A DNA stretch of 40,336 bases from a virus (taxonomy: Duplodnaviria; Heunggongvirae; Uroviricota; Caudoviricetes), in IMG/VR virus record IMGVR_UViG_643348545_000005; one strand, written 5' to 3'. Made by a program: the position numbers and the translations under genes. Shown here in pieces: positions 1,449-28,527 of this stretch; position 1 is the first letter of the stretch, and every line of letters starts with the position of its first letter. A model generated the notes under the pieces. It saw nothing but the letters and a program-made list of their open reading frames with translations, ran no database searches and was not told the origin of the DNA.

Positions 1449-1840
1449 CTTTGTGACTTGCGTGTGAGGGTGCTACTTTCGGCCTTACCCTGACAACCGA
1501 TTGACGGGGGATTACTCCCCCGTCGCGGTTTCCTTACTGCTTACACTGTAAGAACGCCGCAAACTCCGCTCCCCAGATGTTCATCCGTATTTCACACAGC
1601 GAACCATGTAACATCCAGATGATGAGGATTGCCGTCACGCAGAACGTGATGGCCATAAGCGATTTTTGCGACATAGCGCTTGCTCCTTTGTTGGAGAGGC
1701 GCTAACCTGTCACTTGCTAAGGTTAGATGGTTAGGGCCTCGGGTTAACGTTTAAGTTGACTCGGGGCCTTTCCACATCCGGCCTTCAGGTAATCCTTCCA
1801 GCCGTCAGCCGAAAGGCACCCACGTGTAATCTACTGATTT
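1440..1840. repeat. hok/sok-like type I toxin-antitoxin locus, copy A (tandem with 1920-2320)
   Basis: About 400 bp segment that is roughly 80 percent identical by eye to 1920-2320; contains a small Hok-family ORF on the minus strand and a strong 3-prime hairpin (cgggggattactcccccg). Confidence 0.6.
1534..1674 (-). CDS. Hok/Gef-family small membrane toxin (46 aa), HokA-like
   Basis: My translation MSQKSLMAITFCVTAILIIWMLHGSLCEIRMNIWGAEFAAFLQCKQ has an N-terminal TM helix, the conserved SLCE-R cysteine motif and a C-terminal AAFL-C-K tail as in HokA. Below the ORF-track size cut-off. Confidence 0.6.
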   Translation of the reverse strand: MSQKSLMAITFCVTAILIIWMLHGSLCEIRMNIWGAEFAAFLQCKQ

Positions 1841-1919: not shown

Positions 1920-2320
1920 CGTCTGTAATCCAATGGAGAAAGGGGTGCCATATCGACTGCACCCGACAACCGGATAGCGGGGGCTTTCACCCCCGCTGCG
2001 GTTTCTTACTGTTTACACTGCAAGAACGCCGCAAATTCTGACCACATGATGTTAAGTCTGAACTCACACGGCGAACGGTGTATCATCCAGATGGCCAACA
2101 ACATGGTTAAGCATAAAATGCTCACGATGATCGTTTTTTGCGGCATAGCGCTTGACTCCTTTTACAGGGAGGCGCTAACCTTCCACTTGTCTAGGGTAGG
2201 AATGGTTAGGGCCTCGGGTTAAACAATATGTTTGACTCGGGGCCTTTCCACATCCGGCCTTCAGGTTTTCCTTCCAGCCGTCAGCCGAAAGGCACCCGCG
2301 CGTAATGTACTGGTTTTGAG
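1920..2320. repeat. hok/sok-like type I toxin-antitoxin locus, copy B
   Basis: Diverged tandem copy of 1440-1840 with its own Hok-like ORF and 3-prime hairpin (cgggggctttcacccccg); its right end lies inside the 3-prime end of the ogr ORF. Confidence 0.6.
2006..2146 (-). CDS. Hok/Gef-family small membrane toxin (46 aa), second copy
   Basis: My translation MPQKTIIVSILCLTMLLAIWMIHRSPCEFRLNIMWSEFAAFLQCKQ; same architecture as the copy A toxin. Confidence 0.55.
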   Translation of the reverse strand: MPQKTIIVSILCLTMLLAIWMIHRSPCEFRLNIMWSEFAAFLQCKQ

Positions 2321-5650: not shown

Positions 5651-6040
5651 ATGGATAAAGAAACGGAAATGGCCACTGGCACTGCCGTCAGTAACGGGGA
5701 GGCTTCCGCGGTGGCAGTTGCCGCTACGGCTGCACCTAAGAACGTGGTGAAGCTGACGGTGCCTGTTGTGCGCGGAGATGTGTCGTACAGTGAAATTAAA
5801 ATCGGACCGCTGGCGAATCAGGCCGGATCGCTGCGTGGGCTGTCTTTGCTTGCGCTTTACAACATGAACTGTGATGCCATGGTCACCTGGCTTGCGCGTG
5901 TGACAGAGCCAAAACTCAAGGAGGCCGAAATGTATGCCATGAATACGGCGGATTTTACGGCGCTGAGCTCGGCGGCGGTTAATTTTTTCGCACCCTCGGG
6001 GTCGAATGCACCGGCACCGGAGAACACGGCAGAGCCGTAA
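5651..6040 (+). CDS. E: Tail assembly chaperone E
   Basis: Position between tube and tape measure; GGAG RBS; contains a slippery heptamer near its 3-prime end. Confidence 0.7.
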   Translation: MDKETEMATGTAVSNGEASAVAVAATAAPKNVVKLTVPVVRGDVSYSEIKIGPLANQAGSLRGLSLLALYNMNCDAMVTWLARVTEPKLKEAEMYAMNTADFTALSSAAVNFFAPSGSNAPAPENTAEP

Positions 6041-6198
6041 CCTGTCTTTGCTTTGACTGCATTGAAGATCCCGTTGCGGATATTGCTGTTATTTTTAACT
6101 GGCCGCCCGCAGAGATATTTGCAATGACGCCTGCAGAGGTGGTCGCCTGGCGTGAGCGGGCGGCTGCCAGAAGCGGAAGTCACAATCATGATGAATAA
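5651..6198 (+). CDS. Tail assembly chaperone E+E-prime (frameshift product)
   Basis: E frame to 5989, then the -1 frame to the TAA at 6196-6198, overlapping the start of T; analogous to P2 E/E-prime and lambda G/GT. Confidence 0.5.
5983..5989 (+). other. Programmed -1 ribosomal frameshift site (T TTT TTC) for E/E-prime
   Basis: Heptamer TTTTTTC in the E frame; the -1 frame continues to 6198 and encodes ...NWPPAEIFAMTPAEVVAWRERAAARSG. Confidence 0.55.
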
Positions 6199-8980
6199 TC
6201 TGCATATCAGGGTTGCTCTGGCGGCGGCAGACACCCTGACACAACCTCTCAGGCGCGCCCGCGAAACCGTGGGCGCGCTTTCTGATTCCCTCCGTGAAAC
6301 TCAGGACTCCATCCGCTCGCTTGAACGGCAGAGTGAAGCCTTTGCTGCGGCACAGACTAAATTTGACGAAGCCACCCGGAAAATTGCCGCTGTTCAGCAG
6401 CAACTGAACCGTCTGCAGCAGGCGGAGCGTGAGGGTACCGTGCTCAGTGAACGGCAGCGTGAAATGATGGCTTCGCTGACCACCCGGCTTGAACGTCTGA
6501 ACCGGGTGAGGGATGTACATCAGCGACGCCTGGAGGATTCTCGCCGGGAGCTGGAGAGACACGGTATTGCCGCAGAGGGCAGCAGTCAGACCATACAGGC
6601 AGCCATTCGCCGGACGGCAGAGTATAACGAAGCGCTGGCGCGACAGCGGCAGGCACTCGCACAGGTGACCCGTGCACAGCAACGCTATGAACAGGCGCAG
6701 GAGCGACTCGGGCGGATACGTAATGCCGGTGCGGCGGCACTGGCTGCCGGTGCAGCAGGACTTTACGCTGGCGGGCGTGCCGTTGCGCCGGTGATGGATC
6801 TCCAGCGTCATGGTGCCGTCATTGCGGCTCAGGCAGGAGAGGGCGCGTCAGATGCCGTGGGGTATACCGGGGTTATAAACCACATGGTTCATACCGGTAT
6901 CACACCGGATGCACAACTGGCGGCTGAAGCTGTGGGTGCTGTCCGCTCCACGCTGGGTGGGCTGGGGGCGGTTAGTGAGAATGAACTGACCCGAATCACC
7001 CGAAAAATGCTGGATATGCAGGCCGTGATGGGGGGCGATATCCCGCAGCACATTCAGGCGGCTGCCATCATGATCAAAAACGGTCTTGCACGCAGCAGTG
7101 ACGAGGCGGTTGATCTGATGGTGGCGGGCATGCAGCGCATGGGGCCGGTTATGCGCGATGAGCTGCCTGAGATCCTTCACGAATATTCGACCCATTTTCG
7201 TAACATGGGGCTGACAGGGTCGGAAACCATGACGCTCCTTGCGGATATGGCGCAGCAGGGGAAGTTTGCGCTGGATAAAACCGGCGATGCCATCAAGGAG
7301 TTCAGTATTCGCGGCTCCGATATGTCAAAGGCGAGTGCTGAAGCGTATGCGCTTATCGGGCTGGATGCAGCCAGGATGTCATCGGCTGTAGCCAGTGGTG
7401 GAACGGCTGCACGGGCTGCGCTGCAGAAAACAGCCTCGGGTCTGTTGCAGATCGTCGATCCGGCTGAGCGGGCCAATGCGGCCATCGCACTTTTTGGTAC
7501 ACCGGTTGAAGATCTGTCTGTCGATCAAATCCCTGCCTTTCTTGGCGCGCTGGCGCGGGTGTCTGACCGTATGGCTGACGTGTCTGGTGTGGCGGACCGG
7601 ATGGGGCAAACCCTGCGTGACAATCTGAGTGGTGATGTGGCGCGGCTTACCGGGACGTTCAGCGCGCTGAGAAGTGGGATTATCGGGGAGATTACGGACG
7701 ATCTGCGTGGGCTTGTCCGGATGGCCACAGCGTGGGGTGAGCGTCTGCAGGCGTGGGTGAATGCGCATCCGGAACTGGTGCGAATGATTGCGCTGACGAC
7801 GGGAGCGGTGCTGGCGTTAACCACAGCGATGGGGGCGTTGTCCGTTGCGGCCTGGATGGTTGTCGCACCGTTACTGAAACTGCGTCTGGGGCTTGCCCTG
7901 CTTCGCGCGATCCCGGCCGGACTCTCCGTTGCCGGTACGCTGTTTGGCGGACTGACGGGTGTGATTTCAGCCGTGGGGGCTGCGCTTGGGGCGCTGACCT
8001 GGCCGGTTGTGGTGGCGGTGGGAGCCCTGGTCGGTGGTGCTCTGCTGGTCTGGCGCTACTGGGATCGGGTCAGGGCGTTTGTGAGCGGATTTATTGAAGG
8101 GGTACAGTCAGCACTGGCGCCCTTCATGGCGACAGCCTCCCGTTTTGCGCCGCTGCTGGATCTGGTTTCAGGGGCACTGTCCCGTATTCTGGGATGGTTT
8201 AAATCCCTGTTAACGCCGGTCTCCTCCACGCGTGATTTGCTTGAGCAGTGCACCTCTGCCGGGCAGATGTTCGGGAGTACTCTGGCCGGTGCGTTAGCCA
8301 CGGTTTTTTCGCCCCTGAAAGCTCTGATTGACGGTCTGGCGTGGGTGCTGGAAAAACTCGGTGTTCTGCCCGGTGAAGCTGAGCGGGTTAAGCGAAAACT
8401 GGATGAGGCCCGTAAAACGCCGGTGGCGTGGGAGTGGGATCCGGAACAGAAAAAAATGGTTCAGAAGGCGTGGCACTGGTCGCCTCCTGGTGGGGCCAGT
8501 GTGCCTTCCGGCGCCTCCGGTACACAGCCTCCGCCGGTGGCGCTCCCTGCGGGGATAGCGCCGGACGGTAACCGTAACGTTCTCCGTCACCTGAAAGGCA
8601 TTGAGGGGAATACCGGTGGTCTGCTGGCTGAAAACCGTAAACGTATCGGACCCGGAGATATTGTGTTTAAACATCTTCCACGGGCGCTGGCGGTCCGGGG
8701 GCAGTGGCATGAACCTGTCGTTGCGCCGTCTTCCGGCGGAATGCGCGCGCTGCCACAGGAGGAGATTCAGGTGCAGCAATGGCCGACGGCACGCCCGGCG
8801 CCACGAATGCACCAGCAGGAAACCTTCGCCAGCGCCTTTCAGGGGGAGATACATGTGCATCTTCACGGGGTGAGTTCGCATAATCCCCGGGAACTGGCGC
8901 GCATGGTTGGTGACGCTGTCAGGGCGGAAATGAACAGAATGGCACGTGCCGGAACCGGCAGCTTCCGCGATCGCGACTGA
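6188..8980 (+). CDS. T: Tail tape measure protein
   Basis: About 930 aa, coiled-coil rich N-terminus and hydrophobic Gly/Ala-rich middle, typical of tape measure; sits between E and U. Start set at the ATGATG at 6188. Confidence 0.85.
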   Translation: MMNNLHIRVALAAADTLTQPLRRARETVGALSDSLRETQDSIRSLERQSEAFAAAQTKFDEATRKIAAVQQQLNRLQQAEREGTVLSERQREMMASLTTRLERLNRVRDVHQRRLEDSRRELERHGIAAEGSSQTIQAAIRRTAEYNEALARQRQALAQVTRAQQRYEQAQERLGRIRNAGAAALAAGAAGLYAGGRAVAPVMDLQRHGAVIAAQAGEGASDAVGYTGVINHMVHTGITPDAQLAAEAVGAVRSTLGGLGAVSENELTRITRKMLDMQAVMGGDIPQHIQAAAIMIKNGLARSSDEAVDLMVAGMQRMGPVMRDELPEILHEYSTHFRNMGLTGSETMTLLADMAQQGKFALDKTGDAIKEFSIRGSDMSKASAEAYALIGLDAARMSSAVASGGTAARAALQKTASGLLQIVDPAERANAAIALFGTPVEDLSVDQIPAFLGALARVSDRMADVSGVADRMGQTLRDNLSGDVARLTGTFSALRSGIIGEITDDLRGLVRMATAWGERLQAWVNAHPELVRMIALTTGAVLALTTAMGALSVAAWMVVAPLLKLRLGLALLRAIPAGLSVAGTLFGGLTGVISAVGAALGALTWPVVVAVGALVGGALLVWRYWDRVRAFVSGFIEGVQSALAPFMATASRFAPLLDLVSGALSRILGWFKSLLTPVSSTRDLLEQCTSAGQMFGSTLAGALATVFSPLKALIDGLAWVLEKLGVLPGEAERVKRKLDEARKTPVAWEWDPEQKKMVQKAWHWSPPGGASVPSGASGTQPPPVALPAGIAPDGNRNVLRHLKGIEGNTGGLLAENRKRIGPGDIVFKHLPRALAVRGQWHEPVVAPSSGGMRALPQEEIQVQQWPTARPAPRMHQQETFASAFQGEIHVHLHGVSSHNPRELARMVGDAVRAEMNRMARAGTGSFRDRD

Positions 8981-8990
8981 GGTGAAAAAG

Positions 8991-9482
8991 ATGATGATGA
9001 TTTATGGGATGTTTGTGTTTCAGTTAAGTACCCTGCCGCATCAGCAGGTGGAACAGAGTAAACGCTGGCGACACGTCAGTAATGAACGGGTTAACCGTTC
9101 ATCCTCCTGGCAGTATATTGGCTCTGGTGAAGATCACATCACGATGTCCGGTGTGCTCTGTCCGGAAATCACCGGCGGGGAGGTGTCACTGACTGCCCTG
9201 AACACCCTGGCCTACACAGGATTACCCTGGCCACTGATTGATGGTGTCGGACAGATTTACGGGATGTATGTCATTACGGAAATCAGGACCACCCGTCAGG
9301 AGCTGGATCGCTATGGCATGGCCCGCAAAATTGAGTTCACTGTCAGCTTTCAGCGATGCAATGAAGATCTGCGTGAGCGTCTTCAGTCGGGCTCGGTGGG
9401 TGATCTGATGGCAGGATTAAAAAACAGCGCGTCGTCGGCCCTGTCGTCGGCGTCCTCTGCGCTGTCTGGTCTCATGTTGTGA
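8991..9482 (+). CDS. U: Tail protein U
   Basis: MMMIYGMFVFQLSTLP...WRH...GPGED...LTGG matches the P2 gpU N-terminus; GAGGTG RBS. Confidence 0.85.
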   Translation: MMMIYGMFVFQLSTLPHQQVEQSKRWRHVSNERVNRSSSWQYIGSGEDHITMSGVLCPEITGGEVSLTALNTLAYTGLPWPLIDGVGQIYGMYVITEIRTTRQELDRYGMARKIEFTVSFQRCNEDLRERLQSGSVGDLMAGLKNSASSALSSASSALSGLML

Positions 9483-13889: not shown

Positions 13890-14515
13890 AGGTTGTTGAT
13901 AATGATTTCCGTCACTTTCTGTCTGTCGGCTTCACTGAATCCCAGCAGTTCGCGTTGCGGATAGCGGACGGCATTACCGGCAGAGACCAGTGACACTTCG
14001 CCGAACTGATGAACGCGGGCAATGCGGGCTGCGCGGCCTTCAAATCCCACGCTGACGCCGCCGGGATCGGTTTTTACCTTCAGAAAGCGGTTTGTCCGAA
14101 GCTGCTCAAACATGGGTGGACGCTTAATGGCGCTCTGCGTTCGCCTGCGGGTGTCAATTTCCAGGTATTCTTCAATATCGGCTTTGTGGAACGAGCGTAT
14201 TCCCCGGCGCTCCGTGTCGTAACCGGTGATCATGGGGCCGTACCGGCCGGTTGTTGTCCGCCAGTTTTTCAGTCGTCTCACCTGAGTGCCGTTCCAGATG
14301 AACACCACACCTGCCTGGACACGGAATACACGTTTTTTACGGGCGGGCCACCGGTTACCGTCCGGTGATTGTTGCGAACGTATACGCTTTTGTTGCGCGG
14401 CGCGGACAGCCTGACCGACAGCACGGGCTGTTTTGTTTATACCGGCAGCGGACAAACCACTGAGGATCTCCTGAAAGAGACCGTCCAGTCTGTGCAGGTC
14501 ATCCGGAGCCATCAT
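13871..14515 (-). CDS. S: Phage virion morphogenesis / tail completion protein S family
   Basis: Position between R and V; start set at the ATGATG at 14515 just after the R stop; the track ORF extends upstream. Confidence 0.6.
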   Translation of the reverse strand: MMAPDDLHRLDGLFQEILSGLSAAGINKTARAVGQAVRAAQQKRIRSQQSPDGNRWPARKKRVFRVQAGVVFIWNGTQVRRLKNWRTTTGRYGPMITGYDTERRGIRSFHKADIEEYLEIDTRRRTQSAIKRPPMFEQLRTNRFLKVKTDPGGVSVGFEGRAARIARVHQFGEVSLVSAGNAVRYPQRELLGFSEADRQKVTEIIINNLWRNTR

Positions 14516-14966
14516 TCTGACCCCATGTGACATCTTCGAGGGTGACGCGCCATGCTTCCAGGGCCCGGCTGACAGGCGGCTCTCCGATGTGTTCTGCGTG
14601 AACAGTGCCATCATCATTACGGCGGATAATCACCCGCTCCCATACCGGGATTTCCAGCAGGATATCGGTGCTGTCGTCGTCATTGATGGCAACAGAAAAT
14701 TTGATATCCCTGTTTTTCTCCGGATTAAGCAGGAGATCAGGCTGATTGCGGTACAGCCAGCGCATCAGCGGCACCATCAGTTCATCGAGATCCTGCGTGA
14801 AGTCCATGACAAAGATCCCAAGCGTGTAACGGTAAAGATATGAGGGGGATTCGCCGGTCGTCTCAATGCCTCCGTTATTCACATACACAGTGAATTTCTC
14901 CGGGTTGGCGCGACACCATGGGCAGGCGTCAGTCATGGCGTCGCGCAGGGTGTTAATTTTCAGCAT
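14499..14966 (-). CDS. R: Tail completion protein R
   Basis: Similarity to P2 gpR; conserved position upstream of S. Confidence 0.8.
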   Translation of the reverse strand: MLKINTLRDAMTDACPWCRANPEKFTVYVNNGGIETTGESPSYLYRYTLGIFVMDFTQDLDELMVPLMRWLYRNQPDLLLNPEKNRDIKFSVAINDDDSTDILLEIPVWERVIIRRNDDGTVHAEHIGEPPVSRALEAWRVTLEDVTWGQNDGSG

Positions 14967-14981
14967 GCCCCCTCCTGTGTG

Positions 14982-15155
14982 TTATGGCATGTTCTGGTTG
15001 TTCTGTTGTGCAGACTTCTGACTGATTTTTTCAGCGGCGCGCTCGTCAATTTTTCGCTGAAAATAATTTCTGATAACACTGTAACCGCCGCTGATCAGAT
15101 ACAGCGCGCAGACGGCAGTACAGAAATACAGCATGATCTGATGAATGAATAACAT
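14982..15155 (-). CDS. Small hydrophobic protein (about 57 aa), function unknown
   Basis: ORF with a GAGGTG RBS and one predicted TM helix (MLFIHQIMLYFCTAVCALYLISGG), between the esterase gene and R. Confidence 0.3.
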   Translation of the reverse strand: MLFIHQIMLYFCTAVCALYLISGGYSVIRNYFQRKIDERAAEKISQKSAQQNNQNMP

Positions 15156-15301
15156 AATCACCTCACACAAATGATTGACATAACGATGTCTGGCGTTTTA
15201 AAAAAAATGAATAACAATAATAAACACTCTCCATAATTCCTCTTGCGCTCCCGTCAGGTATCTTTTCCTCTCAGTCTTGCCTGCCGGGAGCCTCTTTTTT
15301 C

Positions 15302-17347
15302 TTATGCGGCGTTGCTGTTATTGATATCCACCGTCACATACTCAATCAGCACGGGGTAGGTGTCCTGGTTACTGGTGATATCCGTGATCAGCAGTTTGTC
15401 GTTATCCAGTCCTGCCGCCGGGCATTTCGCCAGATTAAAGGCCGCCTGGGTCTGACCGTTGATGACCGGTGTCACGCTGATGCTGTTATTTCCGGCAAAC
15501 CGGAACACCACGTTGTGCCAGTTATGATTAAATGCCCCGAAGGTTCCCAGTTTTGCATTCTGTTGTTTGTGCTGCATCAGATTCAGGTTTGCGCTGTCGC
15601 TCTGGATGAAGAAGGCGGCCAGCATATCGTTTCCTGCGCTGCCTTCCAGAACAACGTTTTCAGGTAGCTGAGAAACCGGCCAGTGCAGAGCCATGGCGAA
15701 GCGGTTTTCTGCCAGCTGAACACCTTCCGGGATTTTGAAACGAAAGGCAATTTCCCCGCCTTTCTGAAGTAATTCAGCTGCTTTACTTGCAGGCACATCG
15801 TGGGCGATTTTCCAGGCTGTTTGTTGCCCCTGGACTTTTTCCACTCGCATGGCTTTACCGCTCTCAGCAGCAGAGTCATTTACGACGGAGGCTTTTCCAT
15901 CTGCCCCTGTCCAGCCCTGTTCTTTCAGTTTCCCTTCCTGTGCGTCTGCGCGATAAGCGACGGCCGTTGTTCTTGCCGGTGATGACTGCGTACCTGCGCC
16001 CGGCTGAGGTGCAGGTGTGGAGGGCTGCGGGCTTTCCGTGGTGGTGCTGTCTGAACCGGCCGTGGCGGGAGGTATTGCGAGCACGCTGAACGGTGCGGGT
16101 GCACCTTTCAGGAAGGCGACGGTCTTCCCGGCATGCATCAGGATCGCCGTTGCCAGGCGGTCAGAAATAATGCCGCGGCGGGCCCATGAACTGAAATGCG
16201 TGGCGCGATCTGAAGAGGTCCAGTTTCCGTTACTACGGGATGCAGCACCGTAATAACCGGCTTCTGCCAGGTCAGGATCTTCGGCAGGCAGGTTTGTTGG
16301 CGTGTTAGCACCTTTCTCATCGGTCATCAGGGGCACAAAATAAATTTTTTGCGCTTCTTTGTTCTGATATGCACCGTAAACCACCGGGTACTGAGAGGTA
16401 TATTGTTGTTTCCAGATATAGGTGGTATCGCCGCAAATCCAGGGAACAAGTGATGCGTTGCCTCCGGTGCACTGTGCAGCATATGCGCTGAGATCTGCGC
16501 GGAACTGATTCACCATGTTCAGGAATAATTGCGGGTACTGTGCGTATGTTGCTGATTTCAGATCAAACTCTCCCAGCATCCAGACCACGGATAACAGGAC
16601 GTTTTTGGGGTTTTTATCCAGCGCGGCTTTTGTACGGGTAAGCAGATCGTTATACAGCGGTTTGCCGACGCCCCACAGGGATGATTCGGCCGTTGCTCCT
16701 GAAGATTCACTGAATGCCCCCTCTGCGCCGGAAGTAAACGCTGACCCTCCACGACAGCAAGGTACCAGGAGGATCCCTGCATTTTTCGGGATAAACGCCA
16801 GTAATTTTTTGGCAATATGTAAACCCTGTCCGACGCAGCCATACTGACCTTTTGACAGATCGGCGTTCGGATGATTAAGGCTGCTCATATCCTGTACATC
16901 ATGGAGACAGTGATCTGCCGGAATAATATCGTTATAGGTACATGCAGCGCCGCCCGGTGTCACCGTACTGCGACGCGCTAACTGTTTAATTCGTGGATCA
17001 GGACTGTCGAATGTATCCGGTAATGGCAGCCCCTCACCGTATGCCATGCCATTGGACTGACCAGCCAGTGGCACCACATAATAAAACTCTGGCTCAGTTG
17101 TGTGTCCAGTGTTGTATCCGTCGGTAGTGCCCGGTACGGGTTTTTCCTCGCCTTCTGGTACCGGAATGGCTGATGGCAGGTCTCTGTCAGTGACCAGTGC
17201 CTGCATCAGGTAAAATGGTGCTCCCGGCTCTGATGCTGAGACAGGTCCCCCAAGAAGTCCCCATCCTTCCCTGAGCATGGGCGCAAGTTTTTCGGCAAGT
17301 TCCTTGTTCGTCATTGCCGTCACAAGCTGATAATGTTTCGGTACCAT
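15302..17347 (-). CDS. NanS-p-like putative sialate O-acetylesterase (N-terminal DUF1737-like region, SGNH/GQSN esterase domain, Ser/Thr/Pro linker, C-terminal lectin-like domain)
   Basis: GQSN block (VVPLAGQSNGMAYGEG) and domain order resemble prophage NanS-p/YjhS esterases. Start moved to the ATG at 17347, which has a GGAG RBS. Confidence 0.55.
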   Translation of the reverse strand: MVPKHYQLVTAMTNKELAEKLAPMLREGWGLLGGPVSASEPGAPFYLMQALVTDRDLPSAIPVPEGEEKPVPGTTDGYNTGHTTEPEFYYVVPLAGQSNGMAYGEGLPLPDTFDSPDPRIKQLARRSTVTPGGAACTYNDIIPADHCLHDVQDMSSLNHPNADLSKGQYGCVGQGLHIAKKLLAFIPKNAGILLVPCCRGGSAFTSGAEGAFSESSGATAESSLWGVGKPLYNDLLTRTKAALDKNPKNVLLSVVWMLGEFDLKSATYAQYPQLFLNMVNQFRADLSAYAAQCTGGNASLVPWICGDTTYIWKQQYTSQYPVVYGAYQNKEAQKIYFVPLMTDEKGANTPTNLPAEDPDLAEAGYYGAASRSNGNWTSSDRATHFSSWARRGIISDRLATAILMHAGKTVAFLKGAPAPFSVLAIPPATAGSDSTTTESPQPSTPAPQPGAGTQSSPARTTAVAYRADAQEGKLKEQGWTGADGKASVVNDSAAESGKAMRVEKVQGQQTAWKIAHDVPASKAAELLQKGGEIAFRFKIPEGVQLAENRFAMALHWPVSQLPENVVLEGSAGNDMLAAFFIQSDSANLNLMQHKQQNAKLGTFGAFNHNWHNVVFRFAGNNSISVTPVINGQTQAAFNLAKCPAAGLDNDKLLITDITSNQDTYPVLIEYVTVDINNSNAA

Positions 17348-17357
17348 AGTGACTCCG

Positions 17358-17633
17358 TTATTTTTCATGAGTGTTCATTCGTGCTGTCCGCTGCCGCTCC
17401 AGCCCGGCAATGGCGGCTTTATCGGCATTACAACTGTCCAGGGCATCTACCAGTCGGTCTCCCCAGTCAGCCACATCAGCCCATATCATGTGTTGCGGCA
17501 GCACCGGTACCGGCGTCTGTCTGGTCAGACTTTCCGGCACGCTCCCGCAAATGACGCCGGTTTTCAGCGGCGCTGGCGTGTTGTTGCAGGCTGTCAGCAA
17601 CATCAGCAGGGGGAGAAGTGCGTGCGCACTCAT
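17358..17633 (-). CDS. lysC: o-spanin (Rz1/LysC-like outer-membrane lipoprotein)
   Basis: Signal peptide with lipobox (LLMLLTAC) when started at MSAHALL; embedded in the 3-prime part of the i-spanin gene in another frame. Confidence 0.55.
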   Translation of the reverse strand: MSAHALLPLLMLLTACNNTPAPLKTGVICGSVPESLTRQTPVPVLPQHMIWADVADWGDRLVDALDSCNADKAAIAGLERQRTARMNTHEK

Positions 17634-17901
17634 CCGCCTGTAAGTTTTTCCGCATCGTTTCACGTCGTTCTTCCCCTCTGGCTGCACGCTCCTGATCTTC
17701 GCGCCGGATAGCGGCCAGCGCTGACTGTGTCTCCGCCGTGGCCTTAAGCAACTCCCGGACGGTCGTATTGCTCTCTTTCACGGCTTTTTCCAGCGCTTCA
17801 TAACGGGTGCTCTCCTGACCTGAGCGATAGGCCCGGATGACCACCATTGCCTGCAGCGAAATGGTCAGCAGCAGCGCACAAAGGATAATGTTCAGTTTCA
17901 T
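17476..17901 (-). CDS. lysB: i-spanin (Rz/LysB-like)
   Basis: N-terminal TM helix (MKLNIILCALLLTISLQAMVV) followed by a charged coiled-coil region; ATGA overlap with the endolysin stop. Confidence 0.6.
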   Translation of the reverse strand: MKLNIILCALLLTISLQAMVVIRAYRSGQESTRYEALEKAVKESNTTVRELLKATAETQSALAAIRREDQERAARGEERRETMRKNLQADECARTSPPADVADSLQQHASAAENRRHLRERAGKSDQTDAGTGAAATHDMG

Positions 17902-18449
17902 GGCTGCGCTCCCGCGTCTTTCAGGCACCAGTTCTTAAAATCATTCCGGCGGTTAACCAGTCCCTGCGTGCGCGTTCCGCCACTGTTCACAAAATCTGTC
18001 AGCCGGTAACACATGAGGCGCCATTGCCGTGTCTGCGCGTGTTTCCAGATGGTGGTGCGTTGCGGCGTGCCGTTTTTGTTTTTAAACCACATCAGATTCC
18101 GGCAGCCCAGGTTAAAGGCGGCGTCCGTCATGGCTTCGAATGCAGACTGCGGCATCTGCTGCCCCCTGAAATTCTGTGTGATGCAGTTCTCAGCGCGGCG
18201 CATATCGTTGATCCACCGCCCGGCCACTTCCTCCTGTGTGTACAGGCGGTTTTCCACGTTACCGGTGGATCCGCATCCGACCGTACCGACCCCCACCAGA
18301 TCACGGTAGGGTCGGGCCCGGCACTCCTCCCATGTGGCAATTTTGATTTGTGCCTCGCGGGAGGTTCTCAGTTCTCCGGGAGCCAGGGAGATCCCCAGCG
18401 CCACAATGGCGGCCACGGCGTAACGCTTAGGTCCGGCCATCGTGCTCAT
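17898..18449 (-). CDS. K: SAR endolysin (lysozyme, GH24-like)
   Basis: N-terminal signal-anchor-release region (AVAAIVALGISLA) and E...D...T catalytic region (EECRARPYRDLVGVGTVGCG) as in P21 R-type lysozymes. Confidence 0.8.
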   Translation of the reverse strand: MSTMAGPKRYAVAAIVALGISLAPGELRTSREAQIKIATWEECRARPYRDLVGVGTVGCGSTGNVENRLYTQEEVAGRWINDMRRAENCITQNFRGQQMPQSAFEAMTDAAFNLGCRNLMWFKNKNGTPQRTTIWKHAQTRQWRLMCYRLTDFVNSGGTRTQGLVNRRNDFKNWCLKDAGAQP

Positions 18450-18723
18450 CCTGCTTCAGAAGCATCATTGCCCGGCGCTCTGCGTCGTTCAGCTCCCTTC
18501 CTTCTGACTGCATAAGGATTTTTTCAATCAGTTCGTTGCGCCTTGCCTGGGCGATCTCCATCCTGCGGCGGTGAAGCCAGGCACGAAGCAGTGACAGCGT
18601 TCCCAGCACAAAACCGGCCACGGCAATTTTTTCGCTCAGCGTCATCACGCCGATACCGGCTGTCGTCACTGACGCCCAGAACGTGATGTGATCACAAAGC
18701 CGCTGAAACATTCTCACCCCCAC
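18427..18723 (-). CDS. Y: Holin
   Basis: Small protein with predicted TM helices immediately upstream of the endolysin gene. Confidence 0.6.
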   Translation of the reverse strand: MGVRMFQRLCDHITFWASVTTAGIGVMTLSEKIAVAGFVLGTLSLLRAWLHRRRMEIAQARRNELIEKILMQSEGRELNDAERRAMMLLKQDEHDGRT

Positions 18724-18914
18724 AACTGGATCATTTCACGCCGGGTCTGCCCCTGCAGCTCCGGCAGCTCCACTTCCTGTCCGGCATGCAGAAACATGAC
18801 GGCTGAAATCCCCGGATTGGCGGCCAGTACCGCCTCAGTCACCCCCTGCGTGGTGCCGTAATGGCGCTGACAGAGTAAATCGACGGTGTCACCGTCCAGA
18901 GCCATTACTTTCAT
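18714..18914 (-). CDS. X: Tail protein X
   Basis: MKVMALDGDTVDLLCQRHYG...VLAANPG matches P2 gpX; start at MKVM overlaps the L stop. Confidence 0.7.
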   Translation of the reverse strand: MKVMALDGDTVDLLCQRHYGTTQGVTEAVLAANPGISAVMFLHAGQEVELPELQGQTRREMIQLWG

Positions 18915-19408
18915 CAGACCAGCTCCGCATAAATGCGGGTGACACCGCGTATGTCTGATATTGCCCAGCGGGCATCCCGCCACAAATCCTCAACCTGCAT
19001 GTCCAGCGCGTCAGCCCTGCGGTCGCCTTTATCGGTGGTATCCACATCCCGGGTGCGCTCCAGTACAAACGCGCGGGTGAGTGCGAAAACGGCCCTGCGG
19101 TAGCGGTGGACGTGTACACTCTCTCCGTTCACCTGCGTGGCCGGAACGTCAGCCAGTGAGGCCGCGCCTTCAGCCATCCGCTCACGTTTCCAGAGCTCCA
19201 GTTCGGCGATCACATGGGCGACCGCTTCCGTTGCTGCATGTAACAGACGGGTTGTTGTTGTCCTCCCCGGAATGCGGGAAGCCAGGCGAATTTCATGCAG
19301 TGAGATCGCCGGCCAGAAGTCACCCGCGCTCACCATGGCGTCGCCGTCATCGGTGTCGGTGGTATCTGTGTCAGCGCTGTTCACGCGGGGTCTGGCTATC
19401 AGACTCAT
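18914..19408 (-). CDS. L: Head completion / stabilisation protein L
   Basis: Position downstream of M and similarity to P2 gpL. Confidence 0.8.
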   Translation of the reverse strand: MSLIARPRVNSADTDTTDTDDGDAMVSAGDFWPAISLHEIRLASRIPGRTTTTRLLHAATEAVAHVIAELELWKRERMAEGAASLADVPATQVNGESVHVHRYRRAVFALTRAFVLERTRDVDTTDKGDRRADALDMQVEDLWRDARWAISDIRGVTRIYAELV

Positions 19409-19512
19409 GCCTGTCTCCGTAAAAATCAGGCGGTGGGCAACCGGTAAAAAGAACGCGAAGCCTGTTCAGATCACCGGTTGCGCCGCCTGCCGACGAGGTG
19501 CGGTTCGTTAAA

Positions 19513-20310
19513 TCAGTTTGTTTTGCGCGCGGCTTTTTTCTGGCTGGCAGCGCTTTTCTTTTTTGCGCTGCTCTTTTTCCCGCCGGTGGTGGTTTTCCTG
19601 CCCGTTGTGGATGCAGGCACCACCTGATTTCCGTCTGCCAGTTTCCTGACCGCGCGCTCCAGCGTGGCAATTTCACGCTTCACTCCCGAAGCCGGATTGA
19701 TCCGCATGGCTTCACGTAACAGGCTCAGCGACAGACGCAGATCATCGGGAGAGGAGGAGGCGCGGCGGGAAAATGCGCGTGCCTTGTGCAGTTTTGACCT
19801 GACCTGGTCCGGCATATCCTGCTCACTGACCAGGTGGTTCAGCTCATCAAGCATGGCGGTGTACACAGACAAATCCGCCTCGCTGTCCGTTGTGGCCTGC
19901 GTCAGAACGGCGTCAGTAATCTCTTCAGCCAGTACCGTGGCGGCGTCACGGCCAAAGTTATCCGGCAGCGCCAGACCATGGCGGATCACGTACTCCCCGA
20001 TACGCAGTGCCAGCGGGTAGTCACGGCAGTCAATGGCCCACACCATCATGGTGGTGATGACCTCATCCTGGCGTCCGCTGTCTCCTGCCAGGGTGCCTTC
20101 AATCCACCCTTCAAAGTCAGGCAACAGATGTTTTTTAAGCTCTGCCCTGGCGACGTTTGACTGAATACCCTTCAGCTGCATCTGTGCCAGCCTTAACTGG
20201 TGAAGGACCTGTTCATGTGCGGTTCTTTCCCGTTGTGTTTCCCGGGCGTTCATGGTCACCCGGTTGCGGGCCACCGCCTGTTGCACATAGCGTTGTGCCG
20301 GTGTCAGCAT
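19513..20310 (-). CDS. M: Terminase endonuclease (small) subunit M
   Basis: Similarity to P2 gpM; basic Lys-rich C-terminal tail. Confidence 0.85.
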   Translation of the reverse strand: MLTPAQRYVQQAVARNRVTMNARETQRERTAHEQVLHQLRLAQMQLKGIQSNVARAELKKHLLPDFEGWIEGTLAGDSGRQDEVITTMMVWAIDCRDYPLALRIGEYVIRHGLALPDNFGRDAATVLAEEITDAVLTQATTDSEADLSVYTAMLDELNHLVSEQDMPDQVRSKLHKARAFSRRASSSPDDLRLSLSLLREAMRINPASGVKREIATLERAVRKLADGNQVVPASTTGRKTTTGGKKSSAKKKSAASQKKAARKTN

Positions 20311-22377: not shown

Positions 22378-22395
22378 TGTATGGCGACGGGGACA
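22378..22395. promoter_or_regulatory. Candidate Ogr-type late promoter element (TGT-N12-ACA) in the divergent O/P intergenic region
   Basis: TGTatggcgacggggACA about 65 bp upstream of the P start; P2 late promoters carry a TGT-N12-ACA dyad near -55. Confidence 0.35.
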
Positions 22396-25307: not shown

Positions 25308-25811
25308 TTAACGGAATGCGGATGGCGTTCTTCTTTGCAGCTTGCTGATAATATGCATCTTCATACTGTTTACTATCGGCAGCCATTCCCTGTCACCGTC
25401 TCCGTTGATGACCACGCGAATGGAGGTATCATCTTCCACGCGAACCCGAAGAGATACACCGTCTTTTCCGACGGAATGTAACTCCATTGCCAGGACTATG
25501 TTTACCGACTCTCCTTCATCGTGTGAGTCAACCCATGTTCTTACAGCCATCCGGAATATGTTATCTGTGTCGGTTGCAATCATATTTACCGGAAATGGCC
25601 TGAAGTCCCGATCGTTTCTGCACGGAAACCCCGTATCAACGTAACGATGATGCTCGCCGTCTTTGTCTTCCCATGTCTCTGAAGGCAATTCCAGCCACTG
25701 CTCATAAAAAGCAACCAGCTTTTCAGCCTGATTGCGCAGAATCCCTGTAACCTCCCGCCTCGCGTCCCGGCTCTTTTTGTTTGCCAGGTACAAATCGCGA
25801 AAATGGCTCAT
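25308..25811 (-). CDS. Hypothetical protein (167 aa), cargo gene at the portal/cos side
   Basis: Clean ORF with ordinary codon composition; no family I can recognise; lies in the variable region of P2-like phages. Confidence 0.5.
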   Translation of the reverse strand: MSHFRDLYLANKKSRDARREVTGILRNQAEKLVAFYEQWLELPSETWEDKDGEHHRYVDTGFPCRNDRDFRPFPVNMIATDTDNIFRMAVRTWVDSHDEGESVNIVLAMELHSVGKDGVSLRVRVEDDTSIRVVINGDGDREWLPIVNSMKMHIISKLQRRTPSAFR

Positions 25812-26356
25812 GTCGCTCTCCTTTGGTCTGTTTATGCCAGCCTGTATTCTGCGCTCACCTCATATTGTGCGCAAGTTTTCACCCGTGAATGACTGATACT
25901 TTAAATTCTATTAACTTTATGATTTCAGTGATTTTTGTCTCTCTTTTTTATCCCGTTCGTCACGTCCGTTTCCCTCCCGATCTCCGACCTCGCCAGACGC
26001 AATCAGACGCATTCTGACGGCCTGTTTCCCTGACCATGTTTTGATGTGGTTTTTCAAAACTGACTTTACTGCGTGCGTATCACGCGCCATACGACCCCAA
26101 ATAAAGCAACCCGCCTTCCATCCCTCAATTCGGGCGCCCTTCCCTCGTCGCCTGCGCGCTGCAATTGCCTCGTTTTTCGTGCACCGTGCAAACCGGCCTC
26201 AGCCAGCGCCGTTACTGGGCTGAATGGGGATGAAACACATAAGAAAAATTGTGCAATTTCGTGCGCTTTTGTGCATTTTTTATCTTGCGATTTTTGGGGG
26301 TGGGTGGTGATGATAATCATCTGTCTGAATCAGTGGTGTATTGCCGGGTGAGAACT

Positions 26357-26893
26357 GTGAAAAATTACTCATATCCTTATTTAACTTTTGTCACGCTTTC
26401 TGTTTTGGGGGGGATTTTTCTTTTTATTTGGTGGCGAAACGATGTTTACAGAATTACCTACCTTTATTCGTTCACGACAAACTGCCTTGTTTCAGTGTCT
26501 GTGGTGCTTTCGGTTTTTGTCTCACTGTGCCTGTTGAAAAAGAACCTGGTTGATCGGTCTAAATTTACCGGGGTTACATCGTATCTTAAGTTTTTTTCGG
26601 GTATGTGCCTTCTTACCTGGATGATTCTGTTTACCCTCCTGGTTACGCTGATATATTTTCTTCCGGGTGAAGATTCATTCTATTCCGCTCCCTATGAGTA
26701 CAGTCGCGGTAGCTCAAAAAGTTGTTCAGGGGCATTTGTTGATGATCCTGATTTGCAAAAAACAATCTTTATTTGCTACCCATACGGTGACTATCAGGAT
26801 GGTAATGTGATTTATGTGAAGAAGCGTGTGAATGCGCTGGGTGCGGTGGTCACCTATGCATACGCGACAAGCGGCCGATTTCGGTTTGACTGA
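26357..26893 (+). CDS. Hypothetical AT-rich membrane protein (about 3 TM helices plus a roughly 85-aa soluble C-terminal domain)
   Basis: ORF in an AT-rich island; hydrophobic segments; start uncertain (GTG at 26357 with a GGGTGAG RBS, or the internal ATG near 26599). Confidence 0.35.
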   Translation: MKNYSYPYLTFVTLSVLGGIFLFIWWRNDVYRITYLYSFTTNCLVSVSVVLSVFVSLCLLKKNLVDRSKFTGVTSYLKFFSGMCLLTWMILFTLLVTLIYFLPGEDSFYSAPYEYSRGSSKSCSGAFVDDPDLQKTIFICYPYGDYQDGNVIYVKKRVNALGAVVTYAYATSGRFRFD

Positions 26894-26942
26894 AAAAAGA
26901 AATCCTGTGTTACCCTCGCTGCTGAGGGTAACATGCGTGAAG

Positions 26943-27198
26943 TCATCGCCCGGTTCTTGAGCTGATAATGCTTTGCGTCAGCAGCTGCCAGCCCTCTTTC
27001 TGTTGCCCGTACTTGTCCTGATACCTGTTTACCTGCAAGTTTCCGTGCACCAGAATCAGATCGCCTTTTCTGTGTTTTGCCAGTTCTTCGTGCTGCTTCC
27101 CGAATGAAATAAGGTAAAGCCACATTGTGGTTGGCTGTTCTGCGCCATGGCAGGGTAGTGATACCGCCAGTTGTGCCGTTGTGACGTTTGAGGTAGCC
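26943..27198 (-). pseudogene. SSB-like OB-fold protein gene, 3-prime portion (interrupted by the IS)
   Basis: Translation ...TSNVTTAQLAVSLPCHGAEQPTTMWLYLISFGKQHEELAKHRKGDLILVHGNLQVNRYQDKYGQQKEGW aligns with the SSB core (W..V.LFGK...RKG..V.I.G.L..R.W.D..GQ); the frame runs up to the IS left end. Confidence 0.45.
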
Positions 27199-27252
27199 TG
27201 AGTTTAACGGACACTCCTTCCTGAAATAGAATGGCATCAGAAGGAGCTAATA

Positions 27253-27555
27253 ATGAGCAGAAAAACCCAACGTTACTCTAAAGAGTTCAAAGCCGAAGCT
27301 GTCAGAACGGTTCTTGAAAATCAACTTTCGATCAGTGAAGGCGCTTCCCGATTATCTCTTCCTGAAGGCACTTTAGGACAATGGGTTACCGCCGCCAGAA
27401 AAGGGCTCGGTACTCCTGGTTCCCGCACGGTGGCTGAACTGGAATCTGAAATTCTGCAACTGCGTAAGGCGTTAAATGAAGCTCGCCTTGAGCGAGATAT
27501 ATTAAAAAAAGCAACAGCGTATTTTGCACAGGAGTCGCTGAAAAATACGCGTTAA
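27253..27555 (+). CDS. IS3-family transposase OrfA (HTH)
   Basis: 100-aa ORF with the typical IS3-family OrfA leucine-zipper end (...LERDILKKATAYFAQESLKNTR). Confidence 0.85.
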   Translation: MSRKTQRYSKEFKAEAVRTVLENQLSISEGASRLSLPEGTLGQWVTAARKGLGTPGSRTVAELESEILQLRKALNEARLERDILKKATAYFAQESLKNTR

Positions 27556-28409
27556 TCGAACAATGGCGACAACAATTTCCCATTGAAGCGATGTGTCAGG
27601 TATTTGGTGTATCCAGGAGCGGTTATTACAACTGGGTACAGCATGAACCCTCAGACATAAAACAAAGTGATGAGCGGCTAAAACTGGAGATTAAGGTGGC
27701 ACATATCCGCACTCGCGAAACATATGGAACCCGGCGGCTCCAGACGGAGCTGGCAGAGAATGGCATCATCGTTGGTCGTGACCGACTGGCACGTCTTCGT
27801 AAGGAGCTAAGGCTACGCTGTAAGCAGAAACGCAAGTTCAGAGCGACTACGAACTCGAACCACAATCTGCCAGTTGCGCCAAATCTGCTGAACCAGACGT
27901 TCGCTCCTACAGCACCAAATCAGGTCTGGGTGGCGGACCTGACGTATGTTGCCACACAGGAGGGATGGTTGTACCTCGCTGGCATCAAAGATGTTTATAC
28001 GTGCGAAATTGTCGGCTACGCCATGGGAGAGCGCATGACAAAAGAGCTGACAGGTAAAGCCCTGTTTATGGCGCTCAGGAGCCAGCGCCCACCTGCCGGG
28101 CTAATCCACCACTCTGATCGAGGTTCACAGTACTGCGCATACGATTACCGGGTCATACAGGAGCAGTTTGGTCTGAAAACATCAATGTCGCGTAAAGGTA
28201 ACTGTTACGACAACGCTCCGATGGAAAGCTTCTGGGGAACGCTGAAAAATGAGAGCCTGAGCCACTATCGTTTTAATAACCGGGATGAAGCCATCTCAGT
28301 AATACGGGAATACATTGAGATTTTCTACAATCGTCAGCGTCGTCACTCTCGTCTGGGGAATATCTCCCCGGCAGCCTTCAGGGAAAAATATCATCAGATG
28401 GCTGCTTAA
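27504..28409 (+). CDS. IS3-family transposase OrfB (DDE catalytic domain), expressed as an OrfAB fusion by -1 frameshift at A AAA AAA G (27504-27511)
   Basis: The -1 frame is open from the slippery site and encodes an rve-type integrase core (...VADLTYV...HHSDRGSQY...NAPMESFWGTLKNE...). Confidence 0.8.
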   Translation, partial: KKSNSVFCTGVAEKYALIEQWRQQFPIEAMCQVFGVSRSGYYNWVQHEPSDIKQSDERLKLEIKVAHIRTRETYGTRRLQTELAENGIIVGRDRLARLRKELRLRCKQKRKFRATTNSNHNLPVAPNLLNQTFAPTAPNQVWVADLTYVATQEGWLYLAGIKDVYTCEIVGYAMGERMTKELTGKALFMALRSQRPPAGLIHHSDRGSQYCAYDYRVIQEQFGLKTSMSRKGNCYDNAPMESFWGTLKNESLSHYRFNNRDEAISVIREYIEIFYNRQRRHSRLGNISPAAFREKYHQMAA

Positions 28410-28442
28410 AAAAAGAACAAATGGTAGTGTCCGCTATTGCCA

Positions 28443-28527
28443 GTACACCTCAGTTGGTTCCTTTGGTTGTTCTCCTTGTGTTCGGGTCTGCTGCCAGTCG
28501 TCCCTCTGTTGCAACCTGTGTTGGCAT
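28443..28527 (-). pseudogene. SSB-like gene, 5-prime fragment on the other side of the IS
   Basis: ATG at 28527 with a GGGAGA RBS encodes MPTQVATEGRLAADPNTRRTTKGTN, matching the SSB N-terminal GNLGQDPEVRYMPNG signature; the frame does not join cleanly to the 3-prime part. Confidence 0.35.

What the first reader, a model, noticed from the sequence alone, without database searches (positions are those of the whole stretch)
14982..17347. NanS-p-like sialate O-acetylesterase cargo inserted between the lysis cassette and tail completion genes
A 680-aa protein has an SGNH/GQSN esterase core (VVPLAGQSNGMAYGEG), a Ser/Thr/Pro-rich linker and a C-terminal lectin-like domain, the architecture of prophage NanS-p esterases. 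Those are best known from lambdoid Stx prophages, so finding one between lysC and R of a P2-like phage is unusual. It is accompanied by a small predicted membrane protein (14982-15155).
Basis: partly seen in the sequence, partly recalled or inferred. Interest (0 to 1): 0.55.

Follow-up and report, generated by a model that had tools for sequence, protein, structure and literature searches.

The report
NanS-p sialate esterase in P2-like prophage
A P2-type prophage of E. coli carries, inside its late operon, an intact copy of the mucus-sugar de-acetylating enzyme known from Shiga-toxin phages; the call is correct, but this placement turns out to be common in E. coli rather than unusual.

Summary
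Window 15302-17347 (-) encodes a 681-aa protein with DUF1737 + SASA esterase + DUF6645 domains. Its core matches solved NanS (3PT5, E 4e-119) and its C-terminal domain matches solved NanS-p (6YP6, E 9e-60). The Ser/His dyad is intact. Window 14982-15155 (-) encodes a DUF1378 single-pass membrane protein. Both genes lie between lysC and the tail-completion gene R of a P2-like prophage.

The "unusual" claim does not hold:
- This exact arrangement is in 12 of 5426 complete E. coli genomes.
- A sister arrangement (lysC, NanS-p, R; ST131/JJ1886 type) is in 375 genomes.
- The empty P88-type junction is in 687 genomes.
- A context-blind motif scan of IMG/VR gave 36 contigs, all P2-like.

New detail: P2-borne copies share their own DUF1737 subtype, at most 40% identical to lambdoid N-domains. 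The esterase, the C-terminal domain and the first half of DUF1378 are 93-94% identical in DNA to a lambdoid allele, so the gene is mosaic.

I predict no promoter or terminator inside the cassette. It is therefore probably made with the late genes and released by phage lysis. No paper in the searchable library describes NanS-p in P2-like phages. I rate it a new member of a known kind, of modest interest.

The parts
15302..17347 (-). nanS-p-like gene, 681 aa plus stop: DUF1737 - linker - SASA/NanS esterase - S/T/P linker - DUF6645 lectin-like domain
   Evidence: PHROG 143 matches end to end (E 2e-294).
17180..17347 (-). N-terminal DUF1737 domain (residues 1-56) of the P2-specific subtype, with motif EPGxP[FW]YLMQA
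   Evidence: - Pfam 31.3 bits.
- AF2 model gives strand-helix-strand-strand with pLDDT 76.
- It is at most 40% identical to any lambdoid N-domain in the phage collection.
- It is 47-64% identical to other P2-borne copies.
16136..17089 (-). Esterase core (residues 87-404). Nucleophile Ser98 is at 17054-17056 in GQSN, Gln97 is the oxyanion residue, and His384 is at 16196-16198 in RATH.
   Evidence: - Aligned to 3PT5 residues 15-332 with E 4e-119.
- Q97, S98 and H384 are invariant columns.
- Dyad definition taken from PMC9063846.
- dN/dS is 0.14 against the lambdoid allele.
15971..16135 (-). Ser/Thr/Pro-rich linker 2 (residues 405-459), holding the only SSP motif (residue 455)
   Evidence: The phi24B preprint proposes SSP-containing linkers as autoprocessing sites.
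15305..15970 (-). C-terminal lectin-like jelly-roll domain (residues 460-681, DUF6645)
   Evidence: - PDB 6YP6 match, E 9e-60.
- dN/dS is 0.09.
- The phi24B sugar-site residues Y510/Y515/Y540/F611 correspond to F550/H555/F580/L647 here.
15156..15301 (-). Intergenic spacer between nanS-p and DUF1378, shared with lambdoid prophages
   Evidence: - It is 93-100% identical to the lambdoid spacer.
- Its fold is not exceptional (z = -1.0).
- No Rfam family matches.
14982..15155 (-). DUF1378 gene: 57 aa, one predicted transmembrane helix, function unknown
   Evidence: - Pfam E 3.5e-27.
- Hydropathy shows one hydrophobic segment.
- Homology to the lambdoid allele breaks near codon 20, at about 15095.
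17358..17552 (-). lysC (Rz1-like o-spanin), the upstream flank. Its stop is 10 nt before the nanS-p start.
14499..14966 (-). R (P2 tail completion protein), the downstream flank. AGGAGG and its ATG lie 15 nt after the DUF1378 stop.
22378..22395 (.). TGT-N12-ACA dyad in the divergent O/P intergenic region. It is a candidate Ogr-type late promoter element for the operon that contains the cassette.
   Evidence: The link to Ogr-dependent P2 late promoters rests on established P2 knowledge. No transcription start site was determined.

Best explanation
The cassette is a two-gene cargo (nanS-p-like esterase plus DUF1378) embedded in the late operon of a P2-like prophage: O-N-M-L-X-holin-lysozyme-lysB/lysC-[nanS-p-DUF1378]-R-S.

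**Shown here**
- The protein belongs to the NanS-p family, with an intact Gln97/Ser98/His384 active site and a lectin-like C-terminal domain.
- It is under purifying selection.
- The gene is tightly packed between lysC and R and has its own ribosome-binding site.
- No promoter or terminator is predicted on its strand.
- Close relatives of the phage lack the cassette.
- The gene is mosaic. The DUF1737 domain and the 3' half of DUF1378 belong to a P2-phage lineage. Everything between about 17085 and 15095 is 93-94% identical to an allele in a lambdoid (Sepvirinae-like) prophage. This points to allelic exchange by homologous recombination between co-resident prophages.

**Inferred**
- It is transcribed only with the late genes during lytic growth, from the Ogr-type late promoter.
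- It has no signal peptide, so it probably leaves the cell when the holin, endolysin and spanins lyse it.
- Outside the cell it would remove 9-O-acetyl groups from Neu5,9Ac2 on mucins or free sialic acid, as shown for lambdoid NanS-p.
- That would make sialic acid usable for surviving sibling lysogens.
For: **Family identity**
- Domain architecture.
- Solved-structure matches: 3PT5 at E 4e-119 and 6YP6 at E 9e-60.
- Catalytic residues conserved. The dyad is defined in PMC9063846.
- dN/dS is 0.14 for the esterase and 0.09 for the C-terminal domain.

**Operon placement**
- No promoter-like or terminator-like site on the minus strand inside the cassette. The only two minus-strand terminator-like hits in 14400-19600 lie upstream inside other genes.
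- Junction sequences.
- Late-promoter dyad.
- No hydrophobic N-terminus: maximum 19-residue hydropathy is 0.58.

**Variable cargo**
- Empty sites in P88 and Enterobacter phage phiT5282H.
- 687 E. coli genomes carry the empty P88-type junction.

**Mosaicism**.

**Published NanS-p biology**
- Esterase activity, growth on Neu5,9Ac2 and late-gene induction of lambdoid NanS-p are reviewed in PMC8065619.
Against: - No expression or activity data exist for any P2-borne copy.
- The promoter and terminator scan is a simple consensus scan.
- P2-type prophages are often poorly inducible (my own knowledge of P2 biology). That would limit a benefit that depends on release by lysis.
- Only two of the four proposed sugar-binding aromatic residues in the C-terminal domain stay aromatic, so substrate targeting may differ.
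- Some IMG/VR copies are deleted or frameshifted, so the gene is dispensable.
- The phi24B preprint reports that NanS-p is a capsid-bound structural protein, not just a released enzyme.
Confidence: 0.75

Rival explanations
1. The protein is a virion-displayed enzyme. The P2-specific DUF1737 domain would bind gpN capsid hexons, as DUF1737 of phi24B gp84 binds hexon centres. P2-like particles would then carry a sialate esterase and lectin module for mucus adherence or penetration. This does not exclude the released-enzyme reading.
For: - The phi24B cryo-EM preprint identifies DUF1737 as a capsid-binding domain anchored through a loop carrying Tyr42.
- The window's domain has the same predicted strand-helix-strand-strand fold.
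- The hairpin loop at the corresponding position (residues 39-45) is the most divergent part of the N-domain between lambdoid and P2-borne copies.
- A context-blind scan for the P2-type loop motif found 36 of 36 IMG/VR contigs in P2 context.
- Across P2-like lineages, N-domain identity tracks gpN identity (r = 0.69) better than esterase identity does (r = 0.25).
Against: - Retention of the N-domain is explained by recombination mechanics alone. Crossovers with lambdoid alleles can only occur inside the conserved esterase region.
- Among lambdoid phages, N-domain loop types are shared across different capsid families.
- P2-like phages with 98% identical gpN carry N-domains that are only 73% identical.
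- In phi24B the domain binds only the flat facet-centre hexon of a T=9 shell. P2-family capsids are T=7 (established knowledge) and have no such hexon.
- The SISSP motif after the domain is absent here.
- No stand-alone P2-type DUF1737 protein was found.
Confidence: 0.2
2. The enzyme serves the phage at the bacterial surface. It would remove O-acetyl groups from bacterial glycans (O-antigen, or O-acetylated polysialic acid capsule) to help adsorption, or to stop progeny being trapped on debris.
For: This role is raised as an open possibility for NanS-p in the review PMC8065619. The gene sits among virion and lysis genes.
Against: - There is no direct evidence.
- The esterase core is close to NanS, a sialic-acid catabolic enzyme.
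- The gene is absent from many otherwise near-identical phages that infect the same species.
Confidence: 0.1
3. The cassette is a selectively neutral passenger, picked up by recombination and on its way to decay.
For: - In-frame deletions and frameshifts occur in some IMG/VR copies (L046, L052, L026, L042, L037).
- About two thirds of the genomes holding a P88-type lysB-R junction have it empty: 687 empty against 375 filled.
Against: - The frame is intact in the window, and none of the 12 near-identical genomes has it flagged as a pseudogene in the product names listed. The feature table was read only for one of them.
- dN/dS is 0.09-0.14.
- The cassette is kept in at least six divergent P2-like lineages.
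Confidence: 0.05

Closest known systems
NanS-p of lambdoid Stx phages (933W L0105/z1466; phi24B vb_24B_21 = gp84)
   Same: - Same three-domain architecture, catalytic residues and C-terminal jelly-roll domain.
- Followed by DUF1378.
- Lies in a late transcript next to the lysis genes.
- The esterase and C-terminal parts are about 97% identical in protein to one lambdoid allele, from strain 2012EL-2448.
   Different: - The host phage is P2-like (a myovirus with a gpN capsid), not lambdoid.
- The gene lies downstream of the lysis genes rather than upstream.
- Late expression would depend on an Ogr-type activator rather than on Q antitermination.
- The N-terminal DUF1737 is a separate subtype, about 35-40% identical.
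- The first linker lacks the SISSP motif.
Chromosomal NanS (YjhS), PDB 3PT5
   Same: The esterase core aligns end to end (E 4e-119) with Gln/Ser/His conserved.
   Different: NanS has no DUF1737 domain and no lectin-like domain. It belongs to the chromosomal nanCMS operon (my own knowledge of the E. coli sialoregulon).
NanS-p of the P88-like (Xuanwuvirus-type) prophage of ST131, e.g. JJ1886 WP_023363135
   Same: It occupies the same slot (lysC, NanS-p, R), carries the same P2-type DUF1737 motif and has the same architecture.
   Different: - It is only 54% identical overall.
- It has no DUF1378.
- Its lysis cassette differs (M15 peptidase endolysin rather than lysozyme).
- It is far more common: 375 genomes against 12.
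Accessory cargo genes of P2-like phages (P2 old, tin, Z/fun, orf30; the cdt-V operon of P2-like prophages)
   Same: These are non-essential cargo, present in some members of an otherwise collinear phage family and absent in others.
   Different: - The slot is different. The lysC|R junction is not one of the classical P2 cargo sites (from my own knowledge of P2).
- No promoter or terminator of its own is predicted, so it is cargo embedded in the operon.

Membership tests
NanS-p (prophage-borne sialate O-acetylesterase) | Three-domain architecture: DUF1737 - SASA esterase - C-terminal DUF6645/lectin-like domain | tested here: met
   All three Pfam models score above their gathering cut-offs. PHROG 143 matches end to end.
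NanS-p (prophage-borne sialate O-acetylesterase) | Esterase core homologous to NanS/YjhS, with the Ser nucleophile, Gln oxyanion residue and His base (no catalytic Asp) | tested here: met
   The core matches 3PT5 at E 4e-119. Q97/S98 align with Gln18/Ser19 and H384 aligns with His301.
NanS-p (prophage-borne sialate O-acetylesterase) | C-terminal jelly-roll domain with the proposed aromatic sugar-binding site (Y510, Y515, Y540, F611 in phi24B) | tested here: inconclusive
   The domain is homologous (6YP6, E 9e-60). The four residues are F, H, F and L here.
NanS-p (prophage-borne sialate O-acetylesterase) | Encoded in a prophage late region beside the lysis genes | tested here: met
   It lies between lysC and R in a P2-like late operon. 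It is downstream of the lysis genes, not upstream as in lambdoid phages.
NanS-p (prophage-borne sialate O-acetylesterase) | De-O-acetylation of Neu5,9Ac2 and mucin sialic acids | not testable with these tools
   This needs an enzyme assay.
   The motif is R-A-T-H, as in NanS (RSSH). NanS itself lacks the Asp (PMC9063846), so this criterion does not apply to the family.
DUF1378 (PF07125) | Match to the family model; small protein with one hydrophobic helix, encoded after nanS-p | tested here: met
   E 3.5e-27. One hydrophobic segment at residues 3-21. The same gene order is seen in lambdoid phages.
phi24B gp84-type capsid decoration protein | DUF1737 fold (one helix, three strands) | tested here: met
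   Pfam hit. The AF2 model gives E5-11, H14-26, E30-38, E46-53 with pLDDT 76.
phi24B gp84-type capsid decoration protein | Anchor loop with Tyr42, and SISSP cleavage motif after Gly54 | tested here: not met
   The loop reads SEPGAPFY, with F45/Y46 in place of Y42. The first linker lacks SSP.
phi24B gp84-type capsid decoration protein | Bound to capsid hexons in the virion | not testable with these tools
   This needs virion proteomics or cryo-EM. P2-family capsids are T=7 (established knowledge), unlike the T=9 phi24B shell.
P2-like phage (Peduoviridae) late operon | Collinear P2 gene set: Q, P, O, N, M, L, X, lysis genes, R, S, V, W, J, I, H, G, FI, FII, E, T, U, D, ogr | tested here: met
   RefSeq annotation of the 99.7% identical prophage. 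Pfam GpR, Phage_tail_S and LysC hits.
Classical moron (self-contained transcription unit) | Own promoter and terminator flanking the cargo | tested here: not met
   No promoter-like or terminator-like site on the coding strand within the cassette.

The most novel reading that the evidence does not exclude
P2-like phages may have their own DUF1737 subtype that tethers NanS-p to gpN capsid hexons. The enzyme would then be a virion decoration that helps P2-like particles, including the prophage of pandemic ST131, bind or cross O-acetylated sialomucin. As far as I know, this would be the first decoration protein described for P2-family phages themselves. Psu of satellite P4 already shows that gpN hexons can accept one (from memory, not tested here).
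Probability: 0.15. Interest if true: 0.6.

Novelty: new member of a known kind. Interest (0 to 1): 0.3.

Why it matters
NanS-p is discussed almost only as a feature of Stx and other lambdoid prophages.

- **Wider reach.** The same enzyme module is a frequent, exchangeable cargo of P2-like prophages. It occurs in about 7% of complete E. coli genomes, including ST131. That widens the set of strains that may gain access to O-acetylated sialic acids in gut mucus.
- **Cross-family exchange.** Esterase alleles move between unrelated phage families by recombination inside the gene.
- **A testable idea.** A P2-specific DUF1737 subtype, read alongside the 2026 report that DUF1737 binds capsids, gives a cheap experiment on whether P2-like virions are decorated.
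- **A practical point.** GenBank records of several P2-like phages break off inside this multi-copy gene, which hides it from phage-genome surveys.

Tried and rejected
1. **Tail fibre or depolymerase identity.** Rejected. No such hits appeared, and the matches to NanS and NanS-p are strong.
2. **Rare cargo.** Rejected by prevalence counts and by the IMG/VR scan.
3. **Strict matching of DUF1737 subtype to capsid family.** Not supported.
   - Lambdoid loop types b and c each occur with two different major capsid protein families.
   - P2-like phages with near-identical gpN carry different N-domain variants.
4. **Stand-alone P2-type DUF1737 proteins.** The two protein searches returned only partial or frameshifted NanS-p fragments.
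5. **GTDB species-representative genomes.** Both scans found nothing usable.
6. **RNA element or terminator in the nanS-p/DUF1378 spacer.** The fold z-score is -1.0 and there is no Rfam hit.
7. **NCBIfam.** No model matches either protein.
8. **Structure prediction with the full N-domain alignment.** A shallower alignment was used instead.
9. **PDB search for the phi24B capsid-bound DUF1737.** It is not in the copy searched.
10. **Direction of the exchange with the lambdoid allele.** This could not be resolved.
Full report
**1. The observation**

On the minus strand, window 15302-17347 is a 681-aa open frame.
- A longer version from an ATG at 17368 overlaps lysC and has no ribosome-binding site.
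- The 17347 ATG follows GGAG, lies 10 nt after the lysC stop, and is the start used in RefSeq for identical prophages.

Pfam places three domains on it, each above its gathering score: DUF1737 (residues 11-60), SASA, and DUF6645 (residues 534-650). PHROG 143 matches end to end.

Against solved structures:
- Residues 83-404 match NanS/YjhS (3PT5, E 4e-119).
- Residues 460-676 match the NanS-p C-terminal domain of phage phi24B (6YP6, E 9e-60).

Window 14982-15155 (-) encodes a 57-aa DUF1378 protein with one hydrophobic helix. The neighbours are lysC and lysB upstream, and the P2 tail-completion gene R and then S downstream.

**2. Active site**

NanS uses Ser19 and His301, with Gln18 in the oxyanion hole, and has no catalytic Asp (PMC9063846). 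In the alignment to 3PT5, these residues correspond to Gln97, Ser98 (in GQSN) and His384 (in RATH) of the window protein. All three are invariant in my alignments.

The N-terminus has no hydrophobic stretch, so no signal peptide is apparent.

In the lectin-like domain, the four aromatic residues proposed as the sugar site in phi24B are F, H, F and L here. Glycan targeting may differ.

**3. The host element**

The window is E. coli DNA. serS lies at 1-1293 and a P2-like prophage follows. In a 99.7% identical copy (strain JNEC-KY179), RefSeq annotates ogr, D, the sheath, tube and tape-measure genes, the fibre genes, I, J, W, V, S and R. It then annotates the cassette, lysC/lysB, lysozyme, holin, X, L, M, N, O, P, the portal, the early genes and the integrase.

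The divergent O/P intergenic region holds a perfect TGT-N12-ACA dyad. This is the element of Ogr-dependent P2 late promoters (established P2 knowledge).

On the coding strand, the simple scans find no promoter-like site anywhere in 14400-19600 and no terminator-like site within the cassette. Only two weak terminator-like hits lie upstream inside other genes. The spacers are very short: 10 nt from lysC to nanS-p, and 15 nt from DUF1378 to R. I infer that the cassette is transcribed as part of the late operon.

**4. Is it unusual?**

No.
- The same arrangement, at 98.7% identity or more, is in 12 of 5426 complete E. coli genomes. No genome holds this phage lineage with an empty site.
- A different P2-like lineage (P88/Xuanwuvirus-type, for example ST131 strain JJ1886) has a 625-aa DUF1737-SASA-DUF6645 gene overlapping the lysC stop and ending 23 nt before R. 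It has no DUF1378.
- That junction is present in 375 genomes. The empty P88-type lysB-R junction is in 687 genomes.
- A third lineage turned up in a draft genome.
- Relatives with empty sites include phage P88 itself and Enterobacter phage phiT5282H.
- In JJ1886 compared with P88, similarity is lost within the last codons of lysC and resumes about 40 nt into R. The module therefore seems to be swapped by recombination in the flanking genes.
- Three GenBank Peduoviridae records stop inside this gene, presumably because assemblies break at a multi-copy gene.
- The searchable literature does not connect NanS-p with P2-like phages.

**5. Mosaic structure**

Compared with the closest lambdoid allele (a Sepvirinae-like prophage of strain 2012EL-2448):
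- DNA identity is 85-100% from about 17085 to about 15095. That covers the esterase, linker 2, the C-terminal domain, the spacer and the first ~20 codons of DUF1378.
- It falls to 40-57% on both sides.
- In the shared part, dN/dS is 0.14 (esterase) and 0.09 (C-terminal domain).

The N-terminal domain is only about 35-40% identical to any lambdoid N-domain in the phage collection. It shares a motif, L[IV]TA..(25)..[EA]PGxP[FW]YLMQA, with the other P2-borne copies.

A context-blind DNA pattern for that motif behaved as follows:
- It hit 36 IMG/VR contigs. All 36 carry P2 markers (gpN, lysB, R, S) around the gene, in the order lysB, NanS-p, (DUF1378), R, S. They show about seven N-domain variants.
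- It hit nothing in the GTDB species representatives.
- Partial proteins of this subtype are also on record from Salmonella and Enterobacter.

**6. What the N-domain might mean**

A 2026 preprint reports three things about phi24B. NanS-p (gp84) is a capsid decoration protein. Its DUF1737 domain sits as a hexamer on the facet-centre hexon of the T=9 shell through a loop carrying Tyr42. The protein is also self-processed.

The AF2 model of the window's domain has the same strand-helix-strand-strand layout (pLDDT 76). The equivalent hairpin loop is the region that most clearly separates the lambdoid and P2 subtypes. This suggests capsid-specific adaptation.

The controls argue for caution:
- Lambdoid loop types are shared between different capsid families.
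- P2-like phages with 98% identical gpN carry N-domains that are only 73% identical.
- Retention of the N-domain needs no selection. Exchange with lambdoid alleles can only cross over inside the conserved esterase region.
- P2 capsids are T=7, and the SISSP motif is missing.

I give the decoration reading about 0.15-0.2.

**7. Verdict**

This is a genuine, intact NanS-p family esterase with its DUF1378 companion. It is carried as operon-embedded cargo of a P2-like prophage. It is most likely made late in lytic growth and released by lysis, to de-O-acetylate sialic acids. It is a new member of a known kind. The placement is common in genomes but undescribed in the searchable literature.

Noticed in passing
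window 1534-1674 (-) and 2006-2146 (-): Two tandem 46-aa Hok/Gef-type toxin ORFs lie between the host gene serS and the prophage ogr gene. The same pair is annotated as Hok/Gef in the near-identical prophage of JNEC-KY179. There the host flank is zapB/glpF rather than serS, so the prophage, or this end of it, sits at different chromosomal sites in different strains.
   Followed up: partly
window 32788-32875 (-) and 32911-32985 (-): Rfam finds a C4 antisense RNA (82.8 bits) and isrK (64.3 bits) side by side in the early region. They lie near the gene annotated as 'derepression protein' in the identical prophage. This looks like a P1/P7-style antisense-controlled antirepressor module inside a P2-like prophage.
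   Followed up: no
window 27591-28409 (+), within the low-GC stretch at about 25500-28500: An ORF with HTH_21 and rve integrase-core domains (an IS-type transposase) lies between the portal gene and the early genes. It is not in the feature table of the otherwise identical JNEC-KY179 prophage.
   Followed up: no
window 6000-9000 and 17500-20000 versus 14500-16000: The phage backbone has 57-61% GC, well above the cassette (50-55%). Its nearest sequenced relatives are Enterobacter and Klebsiella P2-like phages, at about 70% DNA identity. The lineage may have entered E. coli from a higher-GC enterobacterial host.
   Followed up: partly
window 14391-14408: A second perfect TGT-N12-ACA dyad lies inside the 5' part of gene S, about 500 nt upstream of V. 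It could be chance, since 9 matches were found and 10 are expected in the window, or it could be a displaced P_V-type late promoter.
   Followed up: no
L005 (ON470623), L006 (PV468777), and ON470599: GenBank records of P2-like phages end inside the NanS-p gene. One of them calls it only 'similar to DUF1737 domain-containing protein'. Assemblies probably break at this multi-copy gene, so it is under-reported in phage genome records.
   Followed up: partly
L046 and L052 (IMG/VR); L026, L042, L037; L054: Some P2-borne copies are degraded. Two have an in-frame loss of roughly residues 197-525 (most of the esterase). Several others have frameshifts that split off the DUF1737 domain.
   Followed up: partly
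L011, L012, L013, L014, L015, L017: Lambdoid NanS-p N-domains share an almost invariant first 33 residues. They fall into three hairpin-loop types that do not follow capsid family. Type c occurs with both the 645-aa MCP phages and a lambda gpE phage. Type b occurs with a Sepvirinae phage and with phage ASU11.
   Followed up: partly
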